From a virus (Duplodnaviria; Heunggongvirae; Uroviricota; Caudoviricetes): a stretch of 23,278 nt of DNA. The stretch lies in the IMG/VR virus record IMGVR_UViG_2547132127_000004; one strand, given 5' to 3'. Shown one piece after another: positions 17,528 to 20,500 of this stretch. How positions within the stretch are numbered: position 1 is the first letter of the stretch; each line of letters opens with the position of its first letter. The position numbers are program-made.

Positions 17528-20500
17528 GTCAGAGTCTTTCAGTCTGCGATGATGGGAAATCCCGGAGTGACTGAAAGACGTTTAAGTTATGAATGATCGC
17601 CTTTTTTTGCAAAATTGCTGTGCAGAAATACTAACCTTCGGGCGTGCGATCATTCATAAGCACTCTGCTTTTATTCCGATTAACTGTGGGTGGTTTGTTG
17701 GATAGAGTGCTTTCCTTACTGTATATATCGTTTCGCCCGCTTTTGCGTTTTTTTCTTTTCAAATCCCTTTCATTTCTCAGTGTAAAACTACGCCATCCGT
17801 TATTTGCGGAGGTGAGGCTATGAAATCCATGGACAAAATTTCAACGGGCATTGCCTACGGCACCTCCGCCGGCAGTGCCGGCTACTGGTTTTTGCAGTGG
17901 TTGGATCAGGTCAGGCCATCACAGTGGGCTGCGATTGGTGTGCTGGGAAGTCTGCTTCTGGGGCTTCTGACTTATCTGACGAATCTATATTTCAAAATAA
18001 GAGAAGACAAGCGTAAGGCTGCACGGGGAGAGTAAATAATGAAGCATGAAGAAATGAATCAGCGATTCAATCACCTGGAAAATGAAATCACTGAGCTTAA
18101 TAAAAAATTGTCGGCGTTGGTGAGTTCTGAAGATGAAAACAAACGCCGCGATGAGCATTATGCGGCGATTTACGATTACTGCCACAAAGTCGCTCACGAG
18201 ACTTTTATGAAGTTTTTGCAGGAAAAGTTTTTACCGGCCGCATTGTCAGAAAAAGAGGCGGCTTACCTGCGGCCTGAGTACGTCATTACGGTTAACAGTG
18301 CCGGAGAGGAAGAGCATAAAAGTGATTTTATTGCGTCTGCACCGGATAAAGACCAGGAACCCCATCGGCCTTTCAGGGTTTCCTGTGAAGAGGGTGAGTT
18401 CGTCGTTTATGAGAACGGAAAACCTGTCCGGGCATCGCATCATCACTGCCTGAAAATTATTAATCTCGCTATCAGATGCCTGAAAGACGAAAACACCAGA
18501 GTTATGAAACGCATTGGCCGTTGCATGGGGTATTTGCAGGTGGCGGCAGAGATTGAAGCACTTGCCAGTGGTGCAGACATGGATGCTGCGGTGCGGGAGG
18601 CTCTTCTTCGTGATTTCAATACTCCCCCTTTAAGAAAGAGCCTGATGACTGGATCCAGCCGGGGCTGACTTATCTTAAAAGGCGTATATAAGTTGGCTCG
18701 TTATTTGTTGCCGATAAATCCTGATAAATATCCATGAGCGCAAAAATCAAATACGGCCTGTCAGCTGCTGTTCTGGCGCTGATTGCCGCAGGCGCGTCTG
18801 CTCCCCAGATACTTGACCAGTTTCTGAACGAAAAAGAGGGTAATCACACAACGGCATACCGTGATGGTTCTGGCATATGGACCATCTGTCGTGGTGCCAC
18901 AATGGTGGATGGTAAGCCTGTCATACCGGGAATGAAGCTGTCGAAGGAAAAATGTGACCAGGTTAACGCTATTGAACGTGATAAGGCGCTGGCATGGGTG
19001 GAGCGCAATATTAAAGTACCTCTGACCGAACCCCAGAAAGCGGGTATAGCGTCATTTTGCCCCTATAACATTGGCCCCGGTAAGTGTTTCCCGTCGACGT
19101 TTTATAAGCGGCTGAATGCCGGTGATCGTAAGGGCGCATGCGAGGCGATTCGCTGGTGGATAAAAGATGTTGGGCGCGATTGCCGCATACGTTCAAATAA
19201 CTGCTATGGACAGGTTATTCGTCGTGACCAGGAAAGCGCATTAGCCTGTTGGGAGATAGATCAATGAGCAGAGTCACCGCGATTATCTCCGCTCTGGTTA
19301 TCTGCATCATCGTCTGCCTGTCATGGGCTGTTAATCATTACCGTGATAACGCCATTACCTACAAAGAGCAGCGCGACAAAAACGCCGGAGAACTGAAGCT
19401 GGCGAACGCAACCATTACTGACATGCAGCAGCGCCAGCGTGATGCTGATGCACTCGATGCTAAATACACGAAGGAGTTAGCTGATGCGAAAGCTGAAAAT
19501 GATGCTCTTCGGCGCAAGCTTGATAATGGTGGTCGGGTGCTCGTCAAAGGAAAATGCCCTGTGCCATCCTCAGCCGAAACCTCCAGCGCCTCCGGCATGG
19601 GCAATGATGCCACCGTCGAACTCTCTCCAGTTGCTGGACGAAACGTTCTCGGTATCCGGGACGGAATCATCAGCGACCAGACAGCATTGAGAATGCTTCA
19701 GGAGTACATCAGGACTCAGTGCCTGAAATAAATTTTTTTGCAAATCACAAAGTCCATTTAATGAGCCTCGCACTTGCGGGGCTTTTATATGTCCGCAGTA
19801 AACCGCGCATCGCAGCGCGTAACAATCCCGAGTCTTTCAGAAAGCTGAGCCTGAGAACTGCCGTATAGGTGAGGACCTCTCGGGGACGGCTTTTCTGTGC
19901 GAACAGGCTCAACTTTCTAAAGGAAATACCGACATGAACAAATCATTAACCGTTCTTCCTTCTGGCGAATACCCGACCATGAGCAGTCTTGAGATGGTGG
20001 ATTACATTAATGCTGATCGGAAATCCAAAGCGGAGGCGGAGGGGCTTGCGTTCCCCTGTAAGAAATATCGCAAACTCGAACACCGCAGTTTCATGAAGAA
20101 AGTACCCAGGGTCTGAGGTGTACTGGCAATAGCGGACACTACCATTTGTTCTTTTTTTAAGCAGCCATCTGATGATATTTTTCCCTGAAGGCTGCCGGGG
20201 AGATATTCCCCAGACGAGAGTGACGACGCTGACGATTGTAGAAAATCTCAATGTATTCCCGTATTACTGAGATGGCTTCATCCCGGTTATTAAAACGATA
20301 GTGGCTCAGGCTCTCATTTTTCAGCGTTCCCCAGAAGCTTTCCATCGGAGCGTTGTCGTAACAGTTACCTTTACGCGACATTGATGTTTTCAGACCAAAC
20401 TGCTCCTGTATGACCCGGTAATCGTATGCGCAGTACTGTGAACCTCGATCAGAGTGGTGGATTAGCCCGGCAGGTGGGCGCTGGCTCCTGAGCGCCATAA

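What the first reader, a model, noticed from the sequence alone, without database searches (positions are those of the whole stretch)
18039..18668. Unrecognised 209-aa gene between pinholin S21 and the SAR endolysin
In phage 21-type lysis cassettes, as I recall them, the pinholin and SAR endolysin genes are adjacent. Here a well-initiated ORF (Shine-Dalgarno GGGGAGAG, ATG 3 nt after the holin stop) sits between them, and the endolysin is pushed 65 bp downstream behind a weak ribosome-binding site. The product is soluble, with an N-terminal coiled-coil-like region and a C-terminal Cys/His cluster, and I recognise no family. Its position in Q-dependent late transcription suggests a lysis-timing regulator, or an accessory cargo gene (defence or anti-defence) in a known prophage hotspot.
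Basis: partly seen in the sequence, partly recalled or inferred. Interest (0 to 1): 0.7.

Follow-up and report, generated by a model that had tools for sequence, protein, structure and literature searches.

The report
Frameshifted YdfR-family gene beside lysis genes
The ORF is real, but it is a cut-down, frameshifted copy of an uncharacterised gene family (YdfR family) that commonly sits beside the lysis genes of E. coli, Shigella and Salmonella prophages, so it is catalogued cargo of unknown function, probably impaired in this copy.

Summary
The ORF at 18039-18668 exists as described, between an S21-type holin and a SAR-type lysozyme. It is not family-less. It matches PHROG 1085 (E 1e-73) and is 82% identical to the C-terminal two-thirds of 'long' YdfR-family proteins of 259-333 aa. 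Those proteins carry an N-terminal DUF1327 domain that this ORF lacks.

A 1-nt deletion (CCACCC to CCCCC, 18624-18628) replaces the family's near-invariant 20-aa tail with 12 unrelated residues. The ancestral frame runs to TAA 18689-18691, giving 217 aa. The exact 209-aa protein occurs on at least 1000 contigs, most named as Shigella flexneri. Here it sits in an IS-ridden cryptic prophage.

The holin-lysozyme slot is a replaceable cassette. It is empty in DLP12, holds ydfR in Qin and mEp460, and holds long or standalone forms elsewhere. Salmonella relatives sit upstream of the holin instead, which argues against a dedicated lysis-timing role.

The family is under purifying selection (dN/dS 0.26-0.45; core 0.12-0.30). 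It has only 40 hits among 1.84 billion cluster representatives, and no Pfam, PADLOC or fold match.

Function is unknown. The only lead is indirect: the DUF1327 domain fused to this module in relatives binds RNase E. Interest is low to moderate.

The parts
16601..17017 (+). Q antiterminator gene (context: source of late transcription)
   Evidence: PF06530 Phage_antitermQ, E 5.8e-54, full-length profile match
17217..17527 (+). Cluster of four tRNA genes between Q and the holin: Met/Ile2(cat), Arg(tct), Thr(tgt), Gly(tcc)
   Evidence: ARAGORN; Rfam tRNA matches; the first is annotated tRNA-Ile in L001
17820..18035 (+). S21-type class II holin (pinholin), 71 aa, with a dual start (M1 and M4)
   Evidence: PF04971, E 5.5e-35; sequence MKSMDK...
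18025..18032 (+). Shine-Dalgarno-like GGGGAGAG inside the holin 3' end, placed to serve whichever gene comes next
   Evidence: Read directly from the sequence. The same motif precedes ydfR in Qin and mEp460; a variant, AGAGGTGA, precedes the lysozyme itself in DLP12
18039..18668 (+). The 209-aa ORF: standalone (DUF1327-less), C-terminally frameshifted member of the long YdfR family / PHROG 1085
18039..18230 (+). Residues 1-64: helical, coiled-coil-like region. The first 15 codons (18043-18087) are specific to standalone forms
   Evidence: AF2 helices 3-28 and 32-64; heptad pattern; homology to the long form L008 resumes at 18088
18231..18356 (+). Residues 65-106: indel-rich, fast-evolving, acidic linker predicted to be disordered
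   Evidence: Alignments A1 and A4; dN/dS 0.5-2.8; pLDDT below 50
18357..18629 (+). Residues 107-197: conserved core. A small beta-sheet followed by three helices (RPxFxV..ENGK..SHxH..MKRIGRCMGYLQVAAEIEA..DFNTPP)
   Evidence: Invariant columns; dN/dS 0.12-0.30; pLDDT 71-82 for the equivalent region of P0004
18624..18628 (+). Frameshift site: CCCCC here, CCACCC in relatives (loss of one A)
   Evidence: DNA alignment A3 against L002, L003 and L004; inserting one base restores a 217-aa protein with the family tail
18629..18691 (+). Ancestral reading frame for the conserved tail FKKEPDDWIQPGLTYLKRRI and its stop codon TAA (18689-18691). It is now out of frame
   Evidence: the tail is identical to that of P0004
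18711..18733 (+). Right junction of the slot and native leader of the lysozyme gene (gataaatcctgataaatatcc)
   Evidence: Conserved in window, L008, L005 (mEp460), L003, L004 and L007 regardless of slot content
18734..19267 (+). SAR-type lysozyme (R), 177 aa
   Evidence: PF00959, E 5.4e-24; N-terminal segment GLSAAVLALIAAGASA
19264..19731 (+). Rz spanin gene, with Rz1 embedded at 19484-19690
   Evidence: PF03245, E 4.4e-30; embedded ORF containing the sequence VVGC, read here as a lipoprotein box
20107..21379 (-). IS3-family element (orfA 100 aa, orfB 272 aa) inserted just after the lysis cassette. It truncates the prophage
   Evidence: rve and HTH_Tnp_1 domains; direct repeat with 5821-6120 and 186-nt terminal repeats

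Best explanation
Identity. The ORF is a derived allele of a lambdoid-prophage late-operon accessory gene of the 'long YdfR' family (PHROG 1085). The ancestral architecture, kept from E. coli to Salmonella, has four parts:
- an N-terminal DUF1327 domain;
- a coiled coil;
- a variable, disordered linker;
- a conserved C-terminal beta-plus-helical domain ending in a W..PG..YLK tail.

Two changes in this window. The 5' 393 nt encoding DUF1327 and its linker are replaced by 45 nt. This gives the 'standalone' form, a lineage that is itself intact and under purifying selection in other genomes. A later 1-nt deletion then removed the conserved tail.

Expression (inferred). The gene has no promoter-like site of its own. 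Its ATG lies 3 nt after the holin stop, behind a Shine-Dalgarno sequence embedded in the holin. It is therefore presumably made only from the Q-dependent late transcript.

Mechanism (inferred, about 25% likely). Intact family members would be cytoplasmic, oligomeric adaptors acting on host RNA metabolism late in infection. The DUF1327 domain binds the catalytic half of RNase E and co-purifies with RNA. The conserved C-terminal domain would be the effector or partner-binding part.

Status of this copy (inferred). It lies in a cryptic Shigella flexneri prophage and lacks both the RNase E-binding domain and the tail, so it is most probably impaired or inert. It is not a component of the holin-endolysin timing machinery.
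For: Family identity:
- PHROG 1085, E 1.2e-73; query residues 1-209 align to profile positions 117-288 of 296.
- P0004 (333 aa, PF07041 N-terminus) is 82% identical over 94% of the query.
- Salmonella relatives of 250-340 aa share the same N-terminal domain (weak PF07041 hit), coiled coil, core and tail.

Truncation: DNA homology with the long form L008 runs 17800-18042 and then resumes at 18088 = L008 4398.

Frameshift:
- Alignment A3 and the one-base repair test.
- The closest intact standalones, P0140 and P0142 (217 aa), have the same N-terminus and the intact tail.
- Every full-length member read from the window's 90% cluster carries the shifted tail.

Selection: dN/dS 0.26-0.45 overall, 0.12-0.30 in the core.

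Cryptic prophage: IS copies. The exact protein is on at least 1000 contigs, named Shigella flexneri.

No own promoter. Junction conservation.

RNase E link: Qin YdfR residues 1-72 bind the RNase E N-terminal half by two-hybrid assay and pull-down, and RNA co-purifies (PMC13232886). K-12 YdfR is 62% identical to the N-terminus of P0004.
Against: - The RNase E evidence concerns a domain this ORF does not contain.
- Overexpressing YdfR changed few transcripts.
- AF2 confidence is low overall (mean pLDDT 50.9 and 56.8).
- Standalone forms without DUF1327 persist intact under purifying selection, so the C-terminal module may work independently of any RNase E link.
- The frameshifted allele shows no further disruption in the copies examined, though they belong to one closely related cluster. 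Residual function therefore cannot be excluded.
Confidence: 0.6

Rival explanations
1. Lysis-timing regulator. The protein modulates the S21 pinholin or the release of the SAR endolysin, and that is why it sits between them.
For: It is always found in or next to the lysis cassette. Its start lies 3 nt after the holin stop, behind a Shine-Dalgarno sequence inside the holin, which suggests translational coupling. A genetic screen cited in PMC13232886 linked ydfR to cell-envelope integrity.
Against: There is no transmembrane segment or signal sequence. The slot is empty in DLP12 and can hold quite different contents. In Salmonella the gene is upstream of the holin, separated from it by a convergent ORF, and is paired with a different holin family (PF16080) in two of three loci. 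The S21 holin already encodes its own antiholin through its dual start (established knowledge of S21).
Confidence: 0.1
2. Accessory 'moron' cargo involved in phage-phage or phage-host conflict (defence, anti-defence or superinfection exclusion).
For: The slot is a replaceable cassette with sharp junctions. The middle region evolves fast, with dN/dS up to 1 or more. Several relatives carry a convergent small gene (phrog_1853 and others) typical of moron insertions. The family is narrow and patchily distributed.
Against: PADLOC gives no hit for the ORF or for P0004, and only non-significant or marginal hits for the Salmonella relatives and the neighbouring reverse ORFs. No promoter-like site lies upstream, so lysogen expression is not expected. 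The window copy lacks the convergent partner. Elevated dN/dS is confined to a region predicted to be disordered, which fits relaxed constraint equally well.
Confidence: 0.15
3. A non-functional remnant in this genome, regardless of what the family does. The ORF is a decaying piece of a cryptic prophage and persists only because it has not yet been deleted.
For: The near-invariant tail is lost by frameshift. The DUF1327 domain is absent. The prophage is cut by IS elements immediately downstream and at the integrase. Relatives are often pseudogenes: L002 is frameshifted and L006 broken, and many genomes keep only the unannotated 3' 190 nt.
Against: The remaining 197 codons are intact in the copies examined. 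Standalone forms without DUF1327 are under purifying selection elsewhere. The holin, lysozyme and Rz/Rz1 genes beside it are still intact.
Confidence: 0.5

Closest known systems
YdfR of the E. coli K-12 Qin prophage (P76160; Pfam DUF1327 / PF07041; NCBI 'YdfR family protein')
   Same: It occupies the same slot directly after an S21-type holin and before the 177-aa lysozyme allele, and uses the same holin-embedded Shine-Dalgarno sequence. Long YdfR-family proteins fuse a YdfR-like DUF1327 domain to a module 82% identical to this ORF.
   Different: The ORF has no DUF1327 domain and no significant similarity to K-12 YdfR itself (best BLASTP E 0.035). The reported RNase E and RNA binding of YdfR maps to residues 1-72, which are absent here.
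PHROG 1085 (phage orthologous group, function unknown), with the fragment groups phrog_36381, phrog_26186 and phrog_15975
   Same: Strong profile match, E 1.2e-73, covering all 209 residues. All 16 family members tested match phrog_1085.
   Different: The profile is 296 positions long and the ORF covers only positions 117-288. The N-terminal third is missing and the last positions are lost to the frameshift.
Phage 21 / DLP12 lysis cassette (S21 pinholin, SAR endolysin R21, Rz/Rz1)
   Same: The flanking genes are of this type.
   Different: In DLP12 the holin and lysozyme genes overlap with nothing between them. The lysozyme here is the 177-aa rrrQ-like allele rather than the 165-aa rrrD-like one.
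Known soluble lysis regulators and antiholins (for example T4 RIII, P1 LydB). Recalled from memory, not tested.
   Same: A small cytoplasmic protein encoded beside a holin.
   Different: No sequence or fold similarity was detected to any characterised protein, and the position relative to the holin is not conserved.

Membership tests
Long YdfR family / PHROG 1085 | Significant profile match to the family model | tested here: met
   phrog_1085, E 1.2e-73; phmmer E values down to 1e-100 against long YdfR proteins
Long YdfR family / PHROG 1085 | N-terminal DUF1327 (PF07041) domain | tested here: not met
   No PF07041 hit. Alignment A1 shows the ORF begins in the coiled coil. The 393 nt encoding this domain and its linker in L008 are replaced by 45 nt here
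Long YdfR family / PHROG 1085 | Conserved C-terminal core (..H-x-x-I-I.., LGRxMGxLQxAAEIEA, DxxPPFK) | tested here: met
   Invariant and near-invariant columns are all present through P197
Long YdfR family / PHROG 1085 | C-terminal tail W..PG..YLK.R(I/L), near-invariant even at 25-30% identity | tested here: not met
   Lost to the 1-nt deletion at 18624-18628; still encoded out of frame up to 18691
Long YdfR family / PHROG 1085 | Location in the late operon of a lambdoid prophage, next to the lysis genes | tested here: met
   The order Q, tRNAs, holin, ORF, lysozyme, Rz; same or adjacent position in L003-L008 and L012-L016
Holin / antiholin / membrane lysis regulators | At least one transmembrane segment or a membrane anchor | tested here: not met
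   Highest 19-residue Kyte-Doolittle mean 0.76; GRAVY -0.63
Holin / antiholin / membrane lysis regulators | Effect on lysis timing | not testable with these tools
   Needs lysis curves of isogenic lysogens
Known anti-phage defence systems (PADLOC-DB 2.0) | Match to a defence-protein model | tested here: not met
   No families for the ORF or for the long form P0004; only a non-significant hit (E 0.03) for one Salmonella relative
   Across the E. coli and Salmonella alignment only H136 is kept. C162 varies (C, S or A), and C115, C137 and C146 are not conserved
RNase E-binding proteins (as reported for YdfR) | Physical binding to the RNase E N-terminal half | not testable with these tools
   Reported for Qin YdfR residues 1-72 only (PMC13232886). 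That region is absent from this ORF

The most novel reading that the evidence does not exclude
The conserved C-terminal domain defines a new, very narrow phage effector module limited to E. coli, Shigella and Salmonella. In long forms it is tethered by a coiled coil to an RNase E-binding DUF1327 domain. Standalone forms would work in trans. The module would let lambdoid phages reprogramme host RNA decay during late gene expression and lysis. The fast-evolving linker and the recurrent convergent partner gene (phrog_1853) would reflect an arms race.
Probability: 0.12. Interest if true: 0.6.

Novelty: new variant of a known kind. Interest (0 to 1): 0.25.

Why it matters
For this window it matters little. 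The ORF is a truncated, frameshifted copy in a dead prophage, and the exact protein is already in public databases on at least 1000 contigs.

The useful results are clarifications:
- 'Hypothetical' standalone proteins of 185-222 aa in E. coli and Shigella lysis cassettes are the C-terminal module of long YdfR-family proteins.
- The holin-lysozyme gap is a defined exchange slot with conserved junctions.
- The family also occurs in Salmonella, at a different position.

Together with the 2026 report that the DUF1327 domain binds RNase E, the domain fusion gives a concrete, testable lead for a very common but uncharacterised prophage gene. ydfR-like DNA is present in about two-thirds of complete E. 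coli genomes.

Tried and rejected
- Pfam, NCBIfam and PADLOC scans of the ORF gave only sub-threshold coiled-coil noise.
- A member-by-member Pfam scan of 68 relatives found only DUF1327, in the long forms.
- A profile search against PDB sequences gave nothing below E 0.05.
- AF2 on the window protein (71-sequence alignment) gave mean pLDDT 50.9 and pTM 0.27, too poor for a fold search.
- AF2 on the long form P0004 (68 sequences including Salmonella) gave mean pLDDT 56.8, with usable domains at residues 5-73 and 228-310.
- An exhaustive HMM search of 1.84 billion cluster representatives gave only 40 hits, and no annotated relatives were found on follow-up.
- Zinc or other metal-site idea: rejected on conservation.
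- Regulatory RNA in the slot: Rfam found nothing there.
- Literature: 'DUF1327' appears in one paper, in passing. 'ydfR' has functional data only in PMC13232886.
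Full report
**1. The observation**

The ORF at 18039-18668 (+ strand, ATG start, 209 aa) is present exactly as described.
- Upstream lies a 71-aa S21-type class II holin at 17820-18035 (PF04971, E 5.5e-35) with the MKSM dual start.
- Downstream lies a 177-aa lysozyme at 18734-19267 (PF00959) with a hydrophobic SAR-like N-terminus.
- Rz (19264-19731) with embedded Rz1 (19484-19690) follows.
- GGGGAGAG (18025-18032) lies in the holin 3' end. The holin stop is at 18033-18035 and the ATG at 18039.
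- The protein is soluble: GRAVY -0.63, highest 19-residue hydropathy mean 0.76. It begins with a clean heptad pattern, F10-L13-I17-L20-L24-L27.

The wider context is a lambdoid late region: NinH, an intact Q antiterminator, four tRNA genes, then the lysis genes, followed directly by an IS3-family element. The exact 209-aa protein is found on at least 1000 public contigs, named 'bacteriophage protein [Shigella flexneri]'. The window is therefore most likely a cryptic S. flexneri prophage.

**2. The ORF belongs to a family**

Pfam, NCBIfam and PADLOC give nothing. PHROG 1085 matches at E 1.2e-73, with the whole ORF aligned to profile positions 117-288 of 296. The missing N-terminal third is explained by the homologue search, which returned two kinds of protein, almost all from E. 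coli or Shigella:
- standalone proteins of 185-222 aa, annotated 'hypothetical';
- 'long' proteins of 259-333 aa, annotated 'YdfR family' or 'DUF1327 domain-containing'. These have an N-terminal PF07041 domain followed by a region homologous to the ORF.

P0004 (333 aa) is 82% identical over 94% of the query. K-12 YdfR is 62% identical to the N-terminus of P0004 but has no significant similarity to the window ORF.

An exhaustive HMM search of 1.84 billion cluster representatives found only 40 hits. The distant ones are Salmonella enterica hypothetical proteins of 250-340 aa. They show the same four-part layout:
- a DUF1327-like N-terminal domain;
- a coiled coil;
- a variable linker;
- a conserved C-terminal core and tail.

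The long architecture is therefore likely ancestral, and the window ORF is a DUF1327-less derivative.

At the DNA level, homology with the long-form locus L008 runs through the holin to 18042. It resumes at 18088, which corresponds to L008 position 4398. So 393 nt of the long form are replaced by 45 nt here.

**3. The ORF is frameshifted**

In every alignment the window protein alone ends in LRKSLMTGSSRG. The relatives end in FKK.P..W..PG.TYLK.RI.
- DNA alignment shows CCCCC at 18624-18628 where relatives have CCACCC.
- Inserting one base restores a 217-aa protein whose tail is identical to that of P0004. Its stop is TAA at 18689-18691.
- The closest intact standalones, P0140 and P0142 (217 aa, from E. 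coli and E. albertii), have the same N-terminus and the intact tail.
- Every full-length member read from the window's 90% cluster carries the shifted tail.
- The tail is near-invariant even at 25-30% identity, so its loss is likely to impair the protein.

**4. The slot is a replaceable cassette**

| Locus | Content between holin and lysozyme |
|---|---|
| DLP12 (K-12) | Nothing; holin and lysozyme genes overlap |
| Qin (K-12), phage mEp460 | ydfR (103-104 aa) |
| L008 | 333-aa long form |
| L007 | 268-aa long form plus a reverse-strand ORF |
| L004 | Standalone form plus a reverse-strand ORF |
| L003 | Standalone form, a 75-aa DUF1327 fragment and a reverse-strand ORF |
| L002, L006 | Broken copies |

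The junctions are sharp. The left one is at the slot gene's ATG (18039-18042). The right one is 16-23 nt before the lysozyme ATG (18711-18718).

The holin-embedded Shine-Dalgarno sequence serves whichever gene comes next. The leader gataaatcctgataaatatcc accompanies this lysozyme allele whatever fills the slot. The weak ribosome-binding site of the lysozyme is therefore native and not a consequence of displacement.

An occupied slot is common. ydfR-like DNA occurs in 3647 of 5426 complete E. coli genomes. The window's module is rarer. Some match occurs in 1066 genomes, often only the unannotated 3' 190 nt, and at least 80% coverage occurs in 79.

**5. Position is not fixed to the holin-lysozyme gap**

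In three Salmonella prophage contexts the gene lies between Q (plus a HicAB pair) and the holin. It is followed by a convergent small ORF. In two of the three loci the holin belongs to a different family, PF16080.

The convergent ORF of Salmonella locus L016 is homologous to those in E. coli loci L004, L007 and L011 (phrog_1853). The window has no such partner gene.

**6. It is a real gene family with a conserved core**

| Region of the window protein | dN/dS against relatives |
|---|---|
| Whole gene, diverged pairs | 0.26-0.45 |
| C-terminal core (residues 107-197) | 0.12-0.30 against four of five relatives (0.43 against the near-identical L008) |
| Tail | about 0.2 in three of four comparisons (0.62 against L007) |
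| Indel-rich linker (residues 65-106) | 0.5-2.8 |

Only H136 survives in the Salmonella relatives, and C162 becomes S or A.

**7. Structure gave no functional lead**

- AF2 on the window protein was poor: mean pLDDT 50.9.
- AF2 on P0004 with a broader alignment gave mean pLDDT 56.8. Two regions were moderately confident.
  - Residues 5-73: three strands and a helix, pLDDT 66-87.
  - Residues 228-310: a small sheet and three helices, pLDDT 71-82.
  - The linkers between them are predicted to be disordered.
- The afdb50 library was unavailable.

**8. How it most likely works**

Shown by the analysis:
- the family identity, the N-terminal truncation and the frameshift;
- the cassette nature of the slot;
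- the absence of a promoter-like site upstream;
- purifying selection on the core.

From the literature: Qin YdfR residues 1-72, the DUF1327 domain, bind the N-terminal catalytic half of RNase E in two-hybrid and pull-down assays. RNA co-purifies with YdfR. Overexpression changed few transcripts (PMC13232886).

Inferred: Q-dependent late expression. Also inferred, from the recurrent fusion of DUF1327 to this module through a coiled coil, is a shared pathway for the two parts. My best guess, at about 25%, is a late-expressed cytoplasmic adaptor acting on host RNA metabolism, with the C-terminal domain as the effector or partner-binding part.

For the window copy itself, the likeliest state is impaired or inert (about 50%). 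It lacks both the RNase E-binding domain and the tail, and it sits in an IS-truncated prophage.

Rivals:
- Lysis-timing regulator, about 10%. Against it: no membrane segment, a variable position relative to the holin, and a slot that can be empty.
- Defence or anti-defence cargo, about 15%. Against it: no PADLOC match for the ORF or the long form, and no promoter-like site upstream.

**9. Verdict**

It is a new architectural variant of a known, catalogued but uncharacterised family. Interest is low to moderate, mainly as a pointer to the YdfR family's domain fusion.

Noticed in passing
window 7303-10209 (+): A 968-aa ORF combining Toprim_2, LAGLIDADG_3, Hom_end_hint and AAA_25 domains. It looks like a prophage primase/helicase-like protein carrying an intein with a homing endonuclease.
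   Followed up: no
window 5821-7093, 20107-21379 and 22881-23066: Two direct copies of an IS3-family element (orfA 100 aa, orfB 272 aa, 99-100% identical) and a 186-nt inverted partial copy. One copy abuts the prophage integrase gene (4889-5965, - strand). The other sits right after Rz and truncates a 60-aa ORF (19934-20116). The prophage is cryptic.
   Followed up: partly
window 11887-12075 (+): Rfam matches to the isrK Hfq-binding sRNA (58 bits) and C4 antisense RNA (80 bits), lying within or just upstream of an Ash-family ORF (11353-12183) and upstream of a Rha-family ORF. This resembles a P1/P7-type antisense-controlled antirepressor module.
   Followed up: no
L004 2311-2667 (-), L007 2270-2584 (-), L011 749-1060 (-), L016 4807-5124 (-): A conserved convergent small gene (phrog_1853, 103-118 aa, function unknown) directly follows the YdfR-long or standalone gene in both E. 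coli and Salmonella. Other loci carry unrelated reverse ORFs at the same spot (L003 has phrog_10490; L012 and L014 share another type). The window has none.
   Followed up: partly
window 17217-17527 (+): A four-tRNA cluster between Q and the holin. ARAGORN calls the first tRNA-Met (CAT), but the near-identical locus L001 is annotated tRNA-Ile, suggesting a lysidine-modified Ile2 tRNA. The others are Arg(TCT), Thr(TGT) and Gly(TCC).
   Followed up: no
window 18711-18733 and 18025-18038: Both junctions of the holin-lysozyme slot are conserved across loci with different slot contents. The Shine-Dalgarno sequence inside the holin serves whichever gene follows. The roughly 20-nt lysozyme leader with no obvious Shine-Dalgarno sequence accompanies the 177-aa lysozyme allele.
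   Followed up: yes
E. coli genomes, e.g. L006 (ATCC 25922) 1801-1988: Many E. coli genomes, including ST131 and ATCC 25922, keep only the last ~190 nt of the family gene, unannotated, just upstream of the lysozyme and at about 84% identity. These appear to be remnants of broken long YdfR genes.
   Followed up: partly
window 12-4067 (+): The left end of the window is chromosomal: an FAD-linked oxidase C-terminal domain, an MFS sugar transporter, and ETF beta- and alpha-like genes. The prophage integrase lies at 4889-5965 on the minus strand, which marks the prophage boundary.
   Followed up: no
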